Positions 29,298-57,621 of a stretch of 57,621 bases of DNA are shown in pieces. The notes under the pieces were generated by a model. It was not told the DNA's origin. It did not search any database and worked only from the letters and a program-made list of their open reading frames with translations. Every line of letters starts with the position of its first letter. Within the stretch, counting starts at the first letter, position 1. This stretch comes from Parcubacteria group bacterium GW2011_GWA2_47_21 (lineage in GTDB: Bacteria; Patescibacteriota; Minisyncoccia; Phycocordibacterales; DSPV01), in assembly GCA_001000545.1 (NCBI GenBank), contig LCOC01000004.1, positions 1 to 57,621 on the forward strand. The letters are read 5' to 3'. Made by a program: the position numbers and the translations under genes.

Positions 29298-29456
29298 TTC
29301 AAATATTGCCTTTGTCATACAAACTTTGGTGTGGATAACTTCATCGCACCAAATATAAGTATATGTTCTAATATTAGGGACATAAATTCCATCCCCCCTG
29401 TCATTTTAGTCCAATGTCAAAGGCGGGAGGGGTTTTATTATTTCTAATGTTAAGCG

Positions 29457-30422
29457 ATGAAGATAGATTTCAAGTTGATGCGCGATAATCTCCGCGCTTT
29501 TTTAACTGCTGTTATCAGCGGAATCTTGTTTATCGGTATGTCAGTTTTTGCCGCTACAACCATCAGTACTAGCATACAAACGGACGGAACTCTCTCTGTT
29601 ACAGGTGCTGCGGTGAATTATGGAGATTTGACTACCGGAGGCGATCTCTATGTAAATGGCGCAGATTTCAGCTTGGGTACCGGTAGCGCGACAACCACAC
29701 TCACCGTATCGTCTGCTCGTCTCGGTGTTGCCTCCACAACCCCGTGGGGTCTTTTCTCTATAGAGTCCGACAATAGCAGTGTTGGTATCAATCCGATTTT
29801 TGTCGTTGGTGATCAAGGAACCTCAACACCGCTTTTTATTATATCGGGCAATGACGGGCGAGTGGGGGTTGGCACATCGTCTCCGGGCGTCAGGCTTGGG
29901 GTTGCCGGGGACATTAATGCGAATATTGTTTATGGCGACACCCTTGTTGCCACTTCAACAACGGCCACTTCTACGCTGAAGGGCGGTTTAACGGTAGATA
30001 CGAGCACGCTTGTTGTGGACTTTTCTTCCAATAGTGTTGGCGTCTCGTCATCGTCACCGTTCGTTGCTCTCGGTGTTACTGGCACAACCACATCAAGCTG
30101 GGGGGCAATTCTCGGGCTGAACGGCGCTCCGATTAACCAGTTGCGTTTCGGCACATGCACTTACAATCCGGCCGTTTCCCTCGCGGCAAGTTCCACGCTA
30201 AGCACAAACTGCACTGGGGCGACGGGAGTAAACACATCGGACCGTGTCTTTGTAACGCCAGTATCACTTGAGATAGGGTTGATAATGACAAGCGCTTCTT
30301 CCACAGCAGATAATGTTATACAAGTGAGCGTTATGAATACCGGAAATAGAGAACCATCAGCCGGATACGGTACTGCGGTGACACCCGCATCTGCCACTTG
30401 GTTTTGGATGGCTATCAGATAA
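29457..30422 (+). CDS. secreted/anchored Ser/Thr/Gly-rich fibre-repeat surface protein
   Basis: N-terminal hydrophobic helix (LTAVISGILFIGMSVFAATT). Repeated modules RLGVASTTPWGLFSIES, RVGVGTSSPGVRLGVAG and GGLTVDTSTLVVDFSSNSVGVSSSSPFVALGVTG are homologous to modules in the 55534.. protein. Confidence 0.6.
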   Translation: MKIDFKLMRDNLRAFLTAVISGILFIGMSVFAATTISTSIQTDGTLSVTGAAVNYGDLTTGGDLYVNGADFSLGTGSATTTLTVSSARLGVASTTPWGLFSIESDNSSVGINPIFVVGDQGTSTPLFIISGNDGRVGVGTSSPGVRLGVAGDINANIVYGDTLVATSTTATSTLKGGLTVDTSTLVVDFSSNSVGVSSSSPFVALGVTGTTTSSWGAILGLNGAPINQLRFGTCTYNPAVSLAASSTLSTNCTGATGVNTSDRVFVTPVSLEIGLIMTSASSTADNVIQVSVMNTGNREPSAGYGTAVTPASATWFWMAIR

Positions 30423-54342: not shown

Positions 54343-55017
54343 TTAAATTAGATGAATCGCCCCCAAATTTTTATCTCTTTCTTTGGCGGTGCTGGAATCC
54401 ACAAATTTTCTGTAATCAACTTTTTTGTTTTTAAATTGGCTGGAAATTATTTCGGTATCAAGCAGGTCGCCGAAACGATTTTCTTTTATGTAATCAGTAA
54501 AACTTCCGTATGGGTAGTCGGGGAGAGCGGCGCGCCACTCTTTTAGGCCTCGCGGGTTTTTGTGAACATAAGCGCTTAGATGGAGAAGCTGGGTGTTGCT
54601 TTCTACCCGTACGGCTTTGTAAGCGCCTTGGAAAAGGTGGCCAGTGCGTCGGTACTTCGTATTGAAATATTTCACATAAGCGTTTTGGATGCGGTGCAGG
54701 TAATTTGCCATACCGCCCTCTTTTTCTTCTCTGACAATTAAGTGGAAGTGGTTGGGCATTAAACAGAAACCTATTAAGGTAACAACTCGTTTGGCAACAA
54801 TTTCATTCACCCGCGATGCTCGGCGAGAAAATTGACGCGAGAGGGCGTAATGAGCCACGCTTCTCACGGTATTGTTTAGCGGCAGGGAAGATTGCGCGTG
54901 GAGCACAAGATAGAGAAAACGGACGAAGTCACGCTCATCTAGAAAAATAGGTTTCAGGTCGGTGCCTCGGTTTAAGATGTGATAAATTTCCCCGGGGGCG
55001 ATTACTGGTTTACGCAT
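54343..55017 (-). CDS. IS200-like / REP-associated tyrosine transposase (RAYT, Y1 HUH family)
   Basis: IYHILNRG, FCLMPNHFHLIV (HUH motif) and RTGHLFQGAYKAV (catalytic Tyr region). 224 aa. Confidence 0.75.
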   Translation of the reverse strand: MRKPVIAPGEIYHILNRGTDLKPIFLDERDFVRFLYLVLHAQSSLPLNNTVRSVAHYALSRQFSRRASRVNEIVAKRVVTLIGFCLMPNHFHLIVREEKEGGMANYLHRIQNAYVKYFNTKYRRTGHLFQGAYKAVRVESNTQLLHLSAYVHKNPRGLKEWRAALPDYPYGSFTDYIKENRFGDLLDTEIISSQFKNKKVDYRKFVDSSTAKERDKNLGAIHLI

Positions 55018-55025
55018 AACTTTAT

Positions 55026-55062
55026 CCTATTTCACTTGACACCGAGTGTCAAGTGAAATAGG
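55026..55062. repeat. perfect 17-bp hairpin (3-nt loop) immediately 5' of the transposase gene
   Basis: cctatttcacttgacac-cga-gtgtcaagtgaaatagg, 9 nt from the transposase start codon. This is the position expected for an IS200/RAYT-recognised hairpin. Confidence 0.85.
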
Positions 55063-55302
55063 GGAAAATTGGCCGGCAAGGACTTGTTTTGCGGAATTTT
55101 TTTACTGCGACATTTCTTAATTCTTTCAGGAGCGGGGACGAAAAGAGTAGTTGGGGAAGCGGAAAATCTACTTACACAATTAATTTCAACACATGTAAAG
55201 GGAAAATACTCATTTTAAAAAAATCTCAAAAATCCACCCGCCTTGAAGGTAAAAAATTACCCAAAAGAATGGTCATAATTCCTTTACGAGGATTTGAGAA
55301 TT

Positions 55303-55599
55303 CCGAGATGACGATTTTTAAGGATAAAATCGTACGTTTTTCGCGTTTCTCAACTAAAATTTTTTTTAGATTTTGTAGGATAAATCATTTTGGATTCTCA
55401 TAATTTTTAAAATATTTAGAGATTTTATAAAAAAAGATCCCCGAGATGGAAATTATCCACATTTTTGAACGAATTTTATCAATCCGAGATGAAAATTCTA
55501 GTAAAATGTATAGGTCCTAAAGAGAACCTAGAAATGCGGAAAAAATCTTTAATTATTAAGGGAAAAAAATTCATCTCGGCAAAGCAAGCCGCCGAGATG
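55303..55599 (+). promoter_or_regulatory. cluster of CCGAGATG words upstream of and inside the 5' end of the HTH-fibre gene
   Basis: CCGAGATG at 55303, 55441, 55484 and 55592, with the reverse complement at 55572-55579. The three upstream copies share CCGAGATG-N3-ATT. Confidence 0.4.
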
Positions 55600-57621
55600 A
55601 CTGCTTATACCAGCGATTATGTCGGACAGCTTTGTCGCGGACAGAAAGTGGAGGCAATCAGAGTGGGAAAATCCTGGTATATTTCTTCTGAATCCATACT
55701 TTCCCACAAAGCGGAAAACTTGGATTGGCGAGGCGGAGAAAAAGCGCCAAAAGGACACAAAGTTAAGAGGGTGGAAAAACCGGCCATATTCCACCCAGAG
55801 CCCTTAAAAAGACGAGATCAAGATATCTCGGTTTTTAATACCGATAAAGTTTCTAGCAAGAACACTGTTCCGAGACCGATTTTTACAGAAAGTTCTTTCA
55901 GTGGTGCCGGTCCGGATTTAATTCCAAGAATTGGTGATGATTGGTCGTCAAGCGATTTAAATCACTTGCGTCGCGCCGAGATTGAAAATGAGATTGGTTT
56001 GGTGGCGAGTAATTTACTTCCCGCAGTCCGCAAAAGTAAAACTGAAGCGTTACGGACGAGGACTTCCGACTTTTTTAATAAAACATCAAAGATTCCCGGC
56101 GAACTTTGGAACAAGTACACTGAAACTTTAGAGAAGGGCGCATTTGTTTGGCTGGCAGTTGCTTTGGTTTTTGGGAATTTCTTTTTCGGCAAGTTTTTGA
56201 TTGCCGACGGCGGCTACGAGAAATTGTCCGGCAGATTTTCTCAAGTCGCTTCTATTACCGGACAGAAACTTGCCGATTTTGATTTCGCTGACGTTGCCAG
56301 CTCTTTCAAAAAAACAGCGGACTTTCTCGTCTCGGTTCCAGAGAAAGCTCCCGCTTTGGCTTCTTCGGGCCTTAACGCTTTCTCTGATTGGACAAAAAGT
56401 TTCTTTGATTCCGGAGAAAGGTTCAGTTATCGCGCAAGCAATTTAATCGCCAAAGAATTTCTAAATCTTGAAGAGAAGGCCAGATCGATTACTCTGTCGG
56501 AATCGCGGGCGATTGCCACTTTGCCGGTTGAGATCGCAGAGGAGGCAGCCCGAAGCGTCAACCACACGATTGATACCGGCGTATTCAAGGCAGTAGATGG
56601 CGTGATTTCAATCAAAAATCGCGGGATTGATTTCTTCGCTTCTCTTTTTGGTGGCAATGGTGCGGTTTTGGAAAAGCAAATTATTGTCCGAGAAGGAGGC
56701 CCATCGGTTGTTGTAAGAACATCAGTGCCGCAGGTCTCCAAGCCCCTCGCCGTATCCGGTGCGGTTGACCGGATAATCATGGAGCGGGTAGTTTCTGGCG
56801 TTACATCGGACGATCTGGAGACGCGGCTCAATCAACTTGAGAACAAGTTGATGTCCCAAATGTATAAAATTACCGCTGACATCAAAGGCAATGCCACCTA
56901 CATTTCCAATGTTCACAACATAGTGAGCCAAACCAACCGGATAGATATGCTGACGAGCGTTGATATCACCGACTCCACTTGGACCAGCGGTTCTATCTCG
57001 AGCGACAATATCTCGGGCACTTTCCGCGGCAACATTGAAACCGATAATTTCACCTTAAACGGTGTCGGCGCTGACATGATTATCACCACTAACGGGAGTC
57101 GCAGATTAGTCGCCTCTTCTACGCCGCAAGTCGCTTCGATTAACGCCACTTCCACAAACGCAACCTCCACCTTCGCCGGTGGCTTGACCCTCGGCACCAA
57201 CGGTTTTGTTTTTGATTTTTCATCAACCAATGTGGGTATTGGCACGACATCGCCGCTTTCCAAATTGGACCTTCACGGTAACCTGATTCTTTCCGGTTCT
57301 GGCCGATATATAAATTTTGGAGACGCGGTTGGTTCCATAGGGTACGGCATTCGCGATTCTTCTGGCACCTTGGAGTTTAAAAATTCTGGTGGCGGGTGGA
57401 CTGGGTTTGGTACTGGTTCTGGTGGTGGTTTTGGCCAAACCTTTGAACTCCTCACCTCCAATGGCATCCAAGCGCTCACTCCAACAACTTCAGTGGCCGT
57501 CTCTCTGCCTGGCACCACCCTATACCTCGGCACCGGTCTGGCCACTTCCACCCTCACGAGTTCAGCAGGGAAGTTAGGCCTCGGCTCCTCTTCGCCCTTC
57601 GCCGTTTTTTCCATCTCGCCC
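55534..57621 (+). CDS. large membrane-anchored surface protein: N-terminal excisionase/MerR-type HTH, one TM helix, extracellular fibre-repeat region (3' end outside window)
   Basis: This ORF is not in the ORF track because no stop is reached. My translation from ATG 55534 is open for 696 codons to the window end. It reads MRKKSLIIKGKKFISAKQAAEMTAYTSDYVGQLCRGQKVEAIRVGKSWYISSESI (HTH), then GAFVWLAVALVFGNFFFGKFLI (TM), then GGLTLGTNGFVFDFSSTNVGIGTTSPLSKLDLHG and KLGLGSSSPFAVFSISP modules. Confidence 0.7.
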   Translation, partial: MRKKSLIIKGKKFISAKQAAEMTAYTSDYVGQLCRGQKVEAIRVGKSWYISSESILSHKAENLDWRGGEKAPKGHKVKRVEKPAIFHPEPLKRRDQDISVFNTDKVSSKNTVPRPIFTESSFSGAGPDLIPRIGDDWSSSDLNHLRRAEIENEIGLVASNLLPAVRKSKTEALRTRTSDFFNKTSKIPGELWNKYTETLEKGAFVWLAVALVFGNFFFGKFLIADGGYEKLSGRFSQVASITGQKLADFDFADVASSFKKTADFLVSVPEKAPALASSGLNAFSDWTKSFFDSGERFSYRASNLIAKEFLNLEEKARSITLSESRAIATLPVEIAEEAARSVNHTIDTGVFKAVDGVISIKNRGIDFFASLFGGNGAVLEKQIIVREGGPSVVVRTSVPQVSKPLAVSGAVDRIIMERVVSGVTSDDLETRLNQLENKLMSQMYKITADIKGNATYISNVHNIVSQTNRIDMLTSVDITDSTWTSGSISSDNISGTFRGNIETDNFTLNGVGADMIITTNGSRRLVASSTPQVASINATSTNATSTFAGGLTLGTNGFVFDFSSTNVGIGTTSPLSKLDLHGNLILSGSGRYINFGDAVGSIGYGIRDSSGTLEFKNSGGGWTGFGTGSGGGFGQTFELLTSNGIQALTPTTSVAVSLPGTTLYLGTGLATSTLTSSAGKLGLGSSSPFAVFSISP

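What the first reader, a model, noticed from the sequence alone, without database searches (positions are those of the whole stretch)
55534..57621. Membrane protein combining a cytoplasmic excisionase-type HTH with an extracellular fibre-repeat domain (missing from the ORF track)
My translation gives an open frame of 696 codons from ATG 55534 to the window edge. Its parts are:
- residues ~10-55, a textbook excisionase/MerR-like HTH (KFISAKQAAEMTAYTSDYVGQLCRGQKVEAIRVGKSWYISSESI);
- residues ~205-226, a single TM helix (GAFVWLAVALVFGNFFFGKFLI);
- a coiled segment (LETRLNQLENKLMSQMYKI);
- T/S/G-rich modules of the tail-fibre-like VGIGTTSP..L.. type.

Those modules (GGLTLGTNGFVFDFSSTNVGIGTTSPLSKLDLHG, KLGLGSSSPFAVFSISP) are homologous to the 29457 protein (GGLTVDTSTLVVDFSSNSVGVSSSSPFVALGVTG, RLGVASTTPWGLFSIES).

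A DNA-binding domain tethered through the membrane to a surface fibre suggests one of two things. It could be a one-component trans-envelope signalling or autoregulatory protein, or a re-purposed HTH.
Basis: partly seen in the sequence, partly recalled or inferred. Interest (0 to 1): 0.65.

Follow-up and report, generated by a model that had tools for sequence, protein, structure and literature searches.

The report
Membrane-anchored DNA-binding domain fused to surface fibre
The gene is real: it encodes a single-pass membrane protein of an uncultivated groundwater bacterium (Candidate Phyla Radiation). An excisionase/MerR-type DNA-binding domain sits inside the cell and a tail-fibre-like stalk outside, and the protein belongs to a very large, undescribed family whose function is still only inferred.

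Summary
An ORF runs from ATG 55534 to the contig end (696 codons, truncated). It has four parts:
- an N-terminal winged HTH (res ~10-60). AF2 pLDDT is 87 and the best fold matches are Xis, RacA, BldC and TraN. The window protein scores below the Pfam HTH_17 threshold, but relatives pass it;
- a 140-aa basic linker;
- one TM helix (res 202-223);
- an ectodomain with a confident long helix (425-467) and G-I-G-T-T-S-P fibre modules.

It is one member of a family of at least 4,200 sequence clusters, found here only in Patescibacteria (Paceibacteria-type). The family plan is 1-2 HTH copies, a linker, one TM helix, and an ectodomain of ~55 aa to over 2,000 aa. K/R bias across the family puts the HTH in the cytoplasm.

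The gene sits at a conserved locus: gatB lies upstream in 65 of 80 species. Its promoter architecture is also conserved. It has a TTATCCACA box and CCGAGAT/ATCTCGG repeats, one of them embedded in the HTH codons (ATC-TCG in 65 of 77 loci against 3% expected).

My best reading is a membrane-tethered DNA-binding regulator or anchor coupled to a surface fibre. DNA binding is untested, and a small MerR-like neighbour found in other genomes may be what binds the repeats. The contig ends in a multi-copy fibre module.

Verdict: a new variant of a known kind, moderately to highly interesting.

The parts
55534..57621 (+). Partial CDS (696 codons, 3' end cut by the contig end) of the HTH-TM-fibre protein
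   Evidence: Open frame. The contig equals the window. The best ortholog, L001 (Ca. Taylorbacteria), is 42% identical over 726 aligned columns.
55561..55713 (+). Winged HTH of the MerR/excisionase (HTH_17) type, res 10-60. The recognition-helix motif is Y25-x-x-D28-Y29-V-G-Q-L-C-R35.
   Evidence: Pfam HTH_17 sub-threshold. AF2 pLDDT 87. Foldseek hits Xis, RacA, BldC and TraN. hhalign against bona fide MerR-like proteins gives 87% probability, E 3.9e-6. Y25, D28, Y29 and R35 are invariant in 108 domain copies.
55714..56136 (+). Cytoplasmic linker, res 61-201, poorly conserved. The N-terminal part as a whole (res 1-201) is basic: 37 K/R against 25 D/E.
   Evidence: Composition. The family linker has a median length of about 105 aa.
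56137..56202 (+). Single transmembrane helix (signal anchor), res 202-223
   Evidence: Only hydrophobic peak, Kyte-Doolittle 1.95. In 160 proteins (150 family hits plus the 10 proteins of the first two searches), 147 have exactly one TM helix, with N-side K/R bias in 128 and C-side in 4.
56203..56805 (+). Juxtamembrane ectodomain, res 224-424, no recognisable family
   Evidence: No Pfam, NCBIfam or PHROG hit. From about res 295 onward it aligns with ortholog L001.
56806..56934 (+). Long helix / coiled-coil 'neck', res 425-467, conserved in most long family members
   Evidence: AF2 helix with pLDDT 74-91. BLASTP matches over about res 380-600 in P0002, P0035, L061, L025, L059 and others.
56935..57621 (+). 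S/T/G-rich fibre modules, res 468-696. VGIGTTSP is at 57232-57255 and LGLGSSSP at 57574-57597.
   Evidence: Composition is 46% S+T+G. The modules are shared with Peptidase_S74-terminated proteins P0166 and P0167 and with the 29457 protein.
57523..57621 (.). Multi-copy segment that ends the contig (encodes res 664-696)
   Evidence: Word depth is 18-40x against about 3-7x for the rest of the gene in four metagenome runs, and other contigs branch at 57523 and 57552. The ortholog contig L001 ends within about 20 nt of the same point.
55453..55461 (+). TTATCCACA box (identical to the DnaA-box consensus) upstream of the promoter
   Evidence: Only 2 copies in the window. TTRTCCMCA is present on the + strand upstream of the family gene in 68 of 78 loci.
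55303..55491 (+). Three direct CCGAGATG copies (55303-55310, 55441-55448, 55484-55491). The last lies 10 nt upstream of a TAAAAT -10-like hexamer (55502-55507).
   Evidence: The window holds 7 copies against 1.46 expected, and 5 of them fall within 297 bp. The position next to the -10 hexamer is conserved across species.
55572..55599 (.). Inverted pair CATCTCGG / CCGAGATG inside codons 13-22 of the HTH (10-bp perfect stem, 55570-55601)
   Evidence: (I5, I24). The Ile-Ser codons are ATC-TCG in 65 of 77 loci against 3% expected from codon usage.
54343..55017 (-). Divergent neighbour: IS200-like Y1 transposase-family gene, syntenic in 21 of 80 related loci
   Evidence: Pfam Y1_Tnp, 1.2e-9. Synteny. 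A 25-nt hairpin at 55018-55070 overlaps its sigma-70-like promoter.

Best explanation
The gene encodes a type II (N-in, C-out) single-pass membrane protein of a Paceibacteria-type CPR bacterium.

**Anatomy (shown)**
- A cytoplasmic MerR/excisionase-type winged HTH is joined by a roughly 140-aa flexible basic linker to one TM helix.
- Outside the cell come a helical neck and a tail-fibre-like repeat stalk, which continues beyond the contig end.
- The protein is the 'fibre-fused' form of a very large family. The commoner form has two tandem HTH copies and a short ectodomain, and heads an operon of secreted surface proteins.

**Mechanism (inferred)**
- The protein probably works as a membrane-tethered DNA-binding protein, that is, a transmembrane transcription regulator in the ToxR/CadC sense, built on a different DNA-binding fold.
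- The wHTH would reach the nucleoid through the long linker. It would bind conserved sites at its own promoter and 5' coding region: the TTATCCACA box and/or the CCGAGAT repeats.
- This would couple expression, and possibly membrane-proximal co-translational insertion, of the surface-fibre genes to the state of the fibre outside.
For: **Architecture**
-.

**Fold**
- AF2 pLDDT is 87.
- The top Foldseek hits are all DNA-binding MerR/Xis-type wHTH proteins: Xis 4j2n, RacA-DNA 5i44, BldC-DNA 6ama, TraN 4p0z and RdfS 8dgl, with probability 0.91-1.0.
- hhalign to bona fide MerR/HTH_17 proteins gives 87% probability, E 3.9e-6.
- Relatives pass the HTH_17 gathering score.
- The core domain carries net charge +4 here and +1.9 on average across the family. 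Conserved basic positions are K17/R18, R35, K38 and R42/R43.

**Family**
- 6,986 representative clusters match at E<=1e-3 and 4,218 at E<=1e-10.
- Of 160 proteins examined (150 family hits plus the 10 from the first two searches), 147 have exactly one TM helix.
- K/R is higher on the N-flank in 128 proteins and on the C-flank in 4.
- Tandem wHTH copies resemble the 'internal dimer' of TraN (the TraN comparison is from my own knowledge).

**Context**
- gatB lies upstream in 65 of 80 species and obg in 42.
- Short family genes are followed on the same strand by genes for signal-peptide proteins or giant fibres.

**Cis-elements**
- CCGAGATG is enriched, with 5 copies within 297 bp.
- The TTRTCCMCA box is present in 68 of 78 loci.
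- CGAGAT abuts the conserved TATAAT hexamer in many species.
- The in-frame ATC-TCG codon pair occurs in 65 of 77 loci against 3% expected.

**Precedent**
- Transmembrane transcription regulators are widespread. HTH_17 is a minor DNA-binding domain among them, at 151 of 50,302 (PMC10269533).
Against: - No DNA-binding test was possible.
- The window protein itself is below the Pfam HTH_17 threshold.
- Its own TM-flank charges are balanced (2-4 K/R on each side), so the N-in assignment rests on the family and on the absence of a signal peptide.
- The CCGAGAT/ATCTCGG repeats correlate with a divergent small MerR-like gene in other genomes. A full inverted repeat in the -35/-10 spacer occurs in 16 loci, and 15 of them have that gene. 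ATC-TCG occurs in 51 of 54 loci with the gene and 14 of 23 without it. That soluble protein may be the binder, although it is absent from this window.
- The recognition helix carries an invariant Asp and Gly, which is unusual for base-specific contacts.
- Ectodomains range from about 55 aa to over 2,000 aa. That is not what a conserved sensor domain looks like.
- RodZ shows that 'HTH + TM' need not mean transcription control.
Confidence: 0.45

Rival explanations
1. The protein is a structural anchor with a re-purposed HTH, by analogy with RodZ or RacA. It would be chiefly a surface fibre or adhesin. Its cytoplasmic wHTH would not regulate transcription. It would instead dock the fibre base to a conserved cytoplasmic partner: a cytoskeletal or division protein, or the nucleoid bound non-specifically. 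This would position or stabilise the appendage.
For: - The helix-2 motif is almost invariant (Y25, D28, Y29, R35 at 100%; G31, Q32, L33 at 95% or more) across 108 diverse copies, including both copies of tandem proteins. That fits one conserved ligand better than diversified operators.
- The gene occupies a fixed position among housekeeping genes (obg, gatB) in 65 of 80 species.
- The ectodomain is structural (fibre-like) and extremely variable in size.
- RacA, a chromosome-to-pole anchor, is among the best fold matches.
- RodZ (HTH_25 + TM + DUF4115) is counted among 'TTRs' in census data although it binds MreB (the RodZ function is from my own knowledge).
Against: - No partner was identified.
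- There is no sequence relation to RodZ: no HTH_25 or DUF4115 hit.
- The conserved promoter and coding-region repeats and the TTATCCACA box around this very gene would then need another binder.
- The long flexible basic linker suits reaching DNA.
Confidence: 0.25
2. The membrane protein is regulated rather than regulating. The CCGAGAT/ATCTCGG inverted repeats would be the operator of the small soluble MerR-like protein that is divergently encoded in most related genomes (and lies elsewhere, or has been lost, in this genome). TTATCCACA would be a DnaA box that ties expression to the replication state. The N-terminal HTH of the fibre protein would then have some other role, possibly vestigial.
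For: - The dyad ATCTCGG-N3-4-CCGAGAT fills a spacer of about 19 bp immediately upstream of TATAAT, which is the classical MerR-type promoter layout (the MerR layout is from my own knowledge).
- 15 of the 16 loci with the full dyad have the adjacent MerR-like gene (Fisher p = 0.013).
- The ATC-TCG codon pair is present in 51 of 54 loci with the neighbour and 14 of 23 without it.
- The neighbour passes the Pfam MerR and HTH_17 thresholds.
- TTATCCACA also precedes the MerR-like and Y1_Tnp-like genes and equals the DnaA-box consensus.
Against: - The window and its closest ortholog L001 keep several CCGAGATG copies although no MerR-like gene is nearby.
- The correlations are confounded by phylogeny.
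- A vestigial domain would not stay this conserved across thousands of clusters.
Confidence: 0.2
3. The repeats act at the RNA level. The upstream CCGAGAUG would pair with the CAUCUCGG in codons 13-15, or that segment would pair with the downstream CCGAGAUG. The resulting hairpins would mask the start region and control translation or mRNA stability.
For: - There is perfect 10-nt complementarity between 55484-55493 and 55570-79, and a 10-12-bp stem at 55570-55601.
- The orientation and spacing of about 67-68 nt recur in many loci.
Against: - In most loci the upstream copy abuts, on its 5' side, a strongly conserved TATAAT hexamer. It should therefore not be transcribed.
- In several loci the upstream copy has the same orientation as the coding copy (L005, L013, L016).
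- No Rfam family matches.
Confidence: 0.07

Closest known systems
Transmembrane transcription regulators (ToxR, CadC, TcpP, VtrA; census in PMC10269533)
   Same: - One polypeptide carries an N-terminal cytoplasmic DNA-binding domain, a linker, a single TM helix and an extracytoplasmic C-terminal part.
- The gene lies next to the genes it would plausibly control.
- A membrane-tethered locus ('transertion') is conceivable.
   Different: - The DNA-binding domain is a MerR/excisionase HTH_17 fold, not an OmpR-type Trans_reg_C domain.
- HTH_17 accounts for only 0.3% of catalogued TTRs.
- The outside part is a giant fibre or a 55-aa stub rather than a compact sensor.
- No partner of the ToxS or VtrC type was seen.
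- DNA binding is untested.
RodZ (HTH_25 + TM + DUF4115)
   Same: It shares the topology and the logic of a cytoplasmic HTH tethered through one TM helix to an extracytoplasmic domain. It shows that such an HTH can be a protein-binding module.
   Different: There is no sequence or profile relation. The HTH class differs (XRE-type against MerR/Xis-type). The ectodomain is unrelated.
Small MerR/Xis-like wHTH proteins: BldC, phage Xis (Pukovnik), RdfS, RacA N-domain, TraN of pIP501
   Same: These are the best fold matches (TM-score to target 0.6-0.77, probability about 1). The tandem copies in family members recall the two-repeat TraN and the head-to-tail multimers of BldC and Xis on repeated sites (from my own knowledge).
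   Different: - Those proteins are soluble, and none is fused to a TM helix and a surface fibre.
- Sequence identity is only 12-23%.
- The family-specific DY(I/V)GQLxR helix is not theirs.
Tail-fibre-like proteins with a C-terminal Peptidase_S74 intramolecular chaperone
   Same: - The same short modules are shared (NVGIGTTSP...; LSGSxRYxNFG...GYGIRDxxGxLEFK), at 45-66% identity to P0166 and P0167.
- Family member P0052 ends in Peptidase_S74 at 34.3 bits.
   Different: - The window protein has no Pfam or PHROG tail-fibre hit.
- Its C-terminus is missing.
- The gene is chromosomal, among housekeeping genes, and not in a prophage.

Membership tests
Pfam HTH_17 (PF12728) / MerR-excisionase winged-helix superfamily | Profile match at or above the curated gathering score (27 bits) | tested here: inconclusive
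   The window protein scores 16.2 bits (full length) and 21.3 bits (domain alone), both below the cut-off. Family members pass: P0035 41.7, P0052 35.9, P0023 28.0. Six of seven aligned N-termini, the window's included, hit the family.
Pfam HTH_17 (PF12728) / MerR-excisionase winged-helix superfamily | Fold: strand, helix-turn-helix, beta-hairpin wing, C-terminal helix | tested here: met
   AF2 pLDDT 87 with elements E6-8, E11-15, H16-23, H27-35, E41-44, E47-51, H52-66. The Foldseek top hits are Xis, RacA, BldC, TraN and RdfS.
Pfam HTH_17 (PF12728) / MerR-excisionase winged-helix superfamily | Profile-profile homology to bona fide members | tested here: met
   hhalign of the family profile A2 against the MerR-like neighbour proteins A5 (which pass Pfam MerR and HTH_17) gives probability 87%, E 3.9e-6 over 35 columns.
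Pfam HTH_17 (PF12728) / MerR-excisionase winged-helix superfamily | Binds double-stranded DNA | not testable with these tools
   Only indirect evidence: conserved basic positions and net positive charge, and conserved repeats around the gene's own promoter.
Transmembrane transcription regulators (one-component, ToxR-like in the broad sense) | DNA-binding domain and at least one TM helix in one polypeptide | tested here: met
   wHTH at res 10-60 and TM helix at res 202-223.
Transmembrane transcription regulators (one-component, ToxR-like in the broad sense) | DNA-binding domain on the cytoplasmic side | tested here: met
   At family level, K/R on the N-flank exceeds the C-flank in 128 proteins against 4 (538 against 184 residues). 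There is no N-terminal signal peptide. The window protein's own flanks are balanced.
Transmembrane transcription regulators (one-component, ToxR-like in the broad sense) | Sequence-specific promoter binding and control of transcription | not testable with these tools
   Candidate sites exist, but a rival binder, the MerR-like neighbour, is not excluded.
ToxR/CadC family in the strict sense | OmpR-type winged helix (Trans_reg_C, PF00486) | tested here: not met
   No such Pfam hit, and the fold is MerR/Xis-type.
RodZ | XRE-type HTH (HTH_25) plus C-terminal DUF4115 | tested here: not met
   No Pfam hit to either domain. The C-terminus is missing, but relatives with complete sequences also lack DUF4115.
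Tail-fibre-like proteins with Peptidase_S74 chaperone | C-terminal Peptidase_S74 (PF13884) domain | not testable with these tools
   The gene is cut by the contig end. Family member P0052 has the domain (34.3 bits against a cut-off of 22), and the module relatives P0166 and P0167 have it too.
Tail-fibre-like proteins with Peptidase_S74 chaperone | Profile match to tail-fibre families | tested here: not met
   No PHROG and no Pfam hit for res 224-696. Only short module-level BLAST and HMMER matches were found.
Tail-fibre-like proteins with Peptidase_S74 chaperone | Elongated oligomeric fibre fold | tested here: inconclusive
   The monomer AF2 model of res 380-696 has pLDDT 52. Only helix 425-467 (74-91) and a small sheet at 591-616 (63-76) have any confidence.

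The most novel reading that the evidence does not exclude
Paceibacteria would possess a phylum-wide, previously undescribed device in which a single polypeptide physically links a host-contacting surface fibre to the chromosome.
- The cytoplasmic wHTH would bind an operator that is partly written into its own coding sequence (ATC-TCG-G within helix 1) and into its promoter.
- The gene locus would thereby be held at the membrane. Fibre load or contact outside would directly gate transcription and co-translational export of the surface-fibre genes.
- This would be a mechanosensory or 'transertion' one-component system in organisms that have very few conventional regulators.
Probability: 0.2. Interest if true: 0.85.

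Novelty: new variant of a known kind. Interest (0 to 1): 0.6.

Why it matters
- **Biology of the organisms.** CPR/Patescibacteria are a large part of bacterial diversity. They are mostly uncultivated, live attached to other cells and encode few recognisable regulators.
- **Scale of the family.** A family of over 4,000 sequence clusters places a DNA-binding fold inside and a variable surface structure outside. It sits at a fixed chromosomal position and heads surface-protein operons. That makes it a strong candidate for how these cells couple envelope or host contact to gene expression, or for how they anchor their appendages.
- **Testable reagents.** The work gives concrete sites to test: a 60-aa domain, a 9-bp box, a 7-bp repeat and a codon-level constraint.
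- **Assembly.** It explains why such genes are systematically truncated in metagenome assemblies: the contigs break in multi-copy fibre modules.

Tried and rejected
- **Sequence search of PDB.** Both N-terminal domain profiles found nothing meaningful.
- **NCBIfam and PHROGs on the window protein.** No hits.
- **Word-indexed homolog search.** It returned only a handful of hits. The exhaustive profile search was needed to see the family.
- **The search for related loci with the 108-sequence alignment.** The 7-sequence alignment worked.
- **AF2 of the ectodomain with locus-derived homologs.** The run with a shallow permitted alignment gave pLDDT 52, so I ran no fold search on it.
- **Dispersed REP element.** Rejected. 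The repeats are confined to this gene's 5' region in the window and cluster there in the related loci: 71 of 106 CCGAGATG copies lie within -450 to +100 of the gene start.
- **Replication origin at the TTATCCACA boxes.** Rejected. There are few boxes, and the flanking genes converge on the region instead of diverging from it.
- **Prophage tail-fibre gene.** Rejected. The neighbours are enolase, obg, gatB and secA, with conserved synteny.
- **Known RNA element.** Rfam found nothing.
- **Metatranscriptomes.** None holds the locus.
- **CPR pilus preprint (10.64898/2026.03.03.709456).** It concerns unrelated Ig-like pilins.
- **Literature searches for this architecture in CPR.** They found nothing.


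Full report
**1. The observation**

Translating 55534-57621 on the + strand gives 696 codons with no stop, up to the last base of the window. The window is an entire 57,621-bp contig, so the gene is truncated by the assembly. The ORF tool omits ORFs that run off an end, which explains why it was 'missing'.

The database gene call (P0001, 719 aa) starts at TTG 55465. I prefer ATG 55534 for two reasons:
- Every aligned relative starts with a Met at exactly that position.
- The 69-nt extension is occupied by promoter elements that are conserved across species.

**2. Anatomy of the protein**

*N-terminal domain.*
- Pfam HTH_17 matches res 14-60, but below threshold: 16.2 bits, or 21.3 for the isolated domain, against a cut-off of 27.
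- Family members pass the threshold: P0035 41.7, P0052 35.9, P0023 28.0.
- An AF2 model built on 108 domain copies is confident (pLDDT 87). Its order is strand-strand-helix-helix-hairpin-helix.
- Its best PDB matches are all MerR/excisionase-type DNA binders: Pukovnik Xis, RacA-DNA, BldC-DNA, TraN and RdfS. Foldseek probability is 0.91-1.0 and E-values are modest, as expected for 60 residues.
- Profile-profile comparison with bona fide MerR-like proteins gives 87% probability, E 3.9e-6.
- Sequence searches of PDB found nothing.

*Transmembrane helix.* One hydrophobic segment, res 202-223, is the only TM candidate.

*Ectodomain.*
- It has no Pfam, NCBIfam or PHROG hit.
- Its monomer AF2 model is poor (pLDDT 52). 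The exceptions are a long helix at res 425-467 and a small sheet at res 591-616.
- Its S/T/G-rich modules recur in the 29457 protein (E 2e-6, 51% over 35 aa).
- They also recur in short secreted proteins that end in the Peptidase_S74 intramolecular chaperone, P0166 and P0167.
- One family member, P0052, itself ends in Peptidase_S74.
- 'Tail-fibre-like' is therefore supported at module level only.

**3. The family**

*Size and plan.*
- An exhaustive profile search with the N-terminal domain found 6,986 representative clusters at E<=1e-3 and 4,218 at E<=1e-10.
- The top 150 nearly all have two tandem copies of the domain, a linker of about 105 aa, exactly one TM helix and an ectodomain of about 55 aa. 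A few reach 1,700 aa.
- K/R residues are enriched on the N-side of the TM helix in 128 proteins and on the C-side in 4, which places the HTH in the cytoplasm. The window protein's own flanks are balanced.
- Y25, D28, Y29 and R35 are invariant. G31, Q32, L33 and W48 are nearly so.

*Distribution.*
- A scan of one genome per species returned 282 confirmed loci.
- Of the best 80, 75 are labelled Patescibacteria or one of its groups (Taylorbacteria, Zambryskibacteria, Paceibacteria, Wolfebacteria and others); four carry no taxon beyond 'uncultured bacterium', and one (L035) is labelled Gammaproteobacteria.
- The closest ortholog is L001 (Ca. Taylorbacteria), 42% identical over 726 aligned columns.

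*Gene lengths and truncation.*
- Of 86 family genes in these 80 loci, 43 run off the end of the locus. About 30 of these stop because the contig ends, and about 13 because the protein exceeds roughly 2,050 aa.

**4. Why the contig ends here**

- In four groundwater and soil metagenome runs, the last 100 nt (57523-57621, res 664-696) have 18-40x word depth. The rest of the gene has about 3-7x. Other contigs branch at 57523 and 57552.
- The L001 contig ends within about 20 nt of the homologous point.
- The gene therefore continues. The break is caused by a multi-copy fibre module.

**5. Genomic context**

- The order MYG1-obg-gatB-(Y1_Tnp-like on the minus strand)-family gene is conserved. gatB is present in 65 of 80 loci, obg in 42 and Y1_Tnp in 21.
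- In 47-55 of the 80 loci, an 80-aa soluble MerR-family protein is encoded divergently, immediately upstream (Pfam MerR 1.7e-9). It is absent from this window.
- Where the family gene is short, it is followed on the same strand by genes for proteins with signal peptides, often with no gap. These show weak WxLIP_PGBD and clear fn3 hits. In other loci giant fibre genes follow.
- The window protein looks like a fusion of the anchor and the fibre.

**6. Conserved cis-elements**

*In the window.*
- CCGAGATG occurs 7 times against 1.46 expected, and none of 100 shuffles reached 7.
- Five copies lie within 55303-55599. Three are direct copies upstream, and an inverted pair lies in codons 13-22.

*Layout across species* (positions relative to the Ile codon of helix 1):
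- a TTATCCACA box at about -95, present in 68 of 78 loci and always on the gene's strand;
- CGAGAT abutting a conserved TATAAT hexamer at about -65, in 35 loci. In 16 loci this is a full dyad, ATCTCGG-N3-4-CCGAGAT, filling the spacer;
- the start codon 6-20 nt after TATAAT;
- ATCTCG in the Ile-Ser codons.

*Codon-level constraint.*
- The Ile-Ser codon pair is ATC-TCG in 65 of 77 loci.
- Codon usage in the same loci predicts 3% (binomial p about 1e-86, not corrected for phylogeny).
- This is a nucleotide-level constraint inside the HTH coding sequence.

*Other observations.*
- The box also precedes the MerR-like and Y1_Tnp-like genes.
- The repeats are not dispersed REP-like elements.
- No Rfam family matches, and no transcriptome holds the locus.

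**7. Who binds the repeats?**

- The full dyad and the ATC-TCG codons are more frequent where the MerR-like neighbour is present: 15 of 16 loci for the dyad, and 51 of 54 against 14 of 23 for the codons.
- The dyad-in-spacer layout is classical for MerR regulators (from my own knowledge).
- Yet the window and L001 keep several copies without that neighbour.
- The data cannot decide between the small protein, the membrane protein's own wHTH, or both.

**8. Interpretation**

*Shown.* The protein is a type II membrane protein with a cytoplasmic MerR/Xis-type wHTH and a fibre-like ectodomain. It belongs to a huge Patescibacteria family at a conserved locus with a conserved promoter.

*Inferred as most likely (0.45).* It is a membrane-tethered DNA-binding regulator or anchor for surface-fibre genes. 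That would make it a transmembrane transcription regulator, a class now known to be widespread, in which HTH_17 is rare (PMC10269533).

*Rivals.*
- A RodZ/RacA-like structural adaptor (0.25).
- A protein that is merely regulated by the MerR-like protein and DnaA (0.2).
- RNA-level hairpins (0.07).

**9. Novelty**

Searches of the paper library found no description of this family or architecture in CPR. I rate it a new variant of a known kind, with interest 0.6.

Noticed in passing
window 57523-57621: The last 100 nt of the contig have 4-6 times the depth of the rest of the gene in four metagenome runs, and other contigs branch there. The ortholog contig L001 breaks at the same point. This is a multi-copy fibre module, which could be paralogs, silent cassettes or strain variants.
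   Followed up: partly
window 55453-55461 and 29330-29338; loci L002-L078: TTATCCACA, identical to the DnaA-box consensus, precedes the family gene in 68 of 78 species. It also precedes the neighbouring MerR-like and Y1_Tnp-like genes. The window's only other copy lies about 120 nt upstream of the fibre-module gene at 29457, in the opposite orientation.
   Followed up: partly
L005, L010, L013, L016 and others, about 250-350 nt upstream of the family gene (minus strand): An 80-aa MerR-family protein is divergently encoded next to the family gene in 47-55 of 80 species but is absent from this window. Its presence correlates with a full dyad operator in the -35/-10 spacer.
   Followed up: partly
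P0002 (res ~581-918) and L010:849-4691 (res ~640-981): An intein (Intein_splicing/Hint) carrying a NYN nuclease domain is inserted in the extracellular fibre part of two relatives. This is an unusual host protein for an intein.
   Followed up: no
L006, L012, L030, L042, L060, L067 and others, downstream of short family genes: Same-strand operons encode 223-, 325-, 250- and 530-aa proteins with signal peptides. They show weak WxL-interacting-protein (WxLIP_PGBD) hits and clear fn3 hits, reminiscent of Gram-positive WxL/Csc surface-complex loci.
   Followed up: partly
window 54343-55070: An IS200-like Y1 transposase-family gene is syntenic in 21 of 80 species, so it is probably domesticated rather than mobile. 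A 25-nt near-perfect hairpin (55018-55070) overlaps its sigma-70-like promoter (TTGACA-17-TAGGAT).
   Followed up: partly
window 55071-55533: The 104-codon TTG ORF at 55089-55403 has no homolog in 80 related loci and is probably non-coding. This interval is where other genomes carry the MerR-like gene.
   Followed up: partly
P0005, P0011, P0013 C-termini: Short-ectodomain family members end in a conserved motif of about 45 aa (FSD-x-V-x-V-x-D-x-SG-x-x-G-I-I-x-P-x-F ... Y-x-x-V-x-VPV) with no Pfam match. It may be the ancestral outside module of the family.
   Followed up: no
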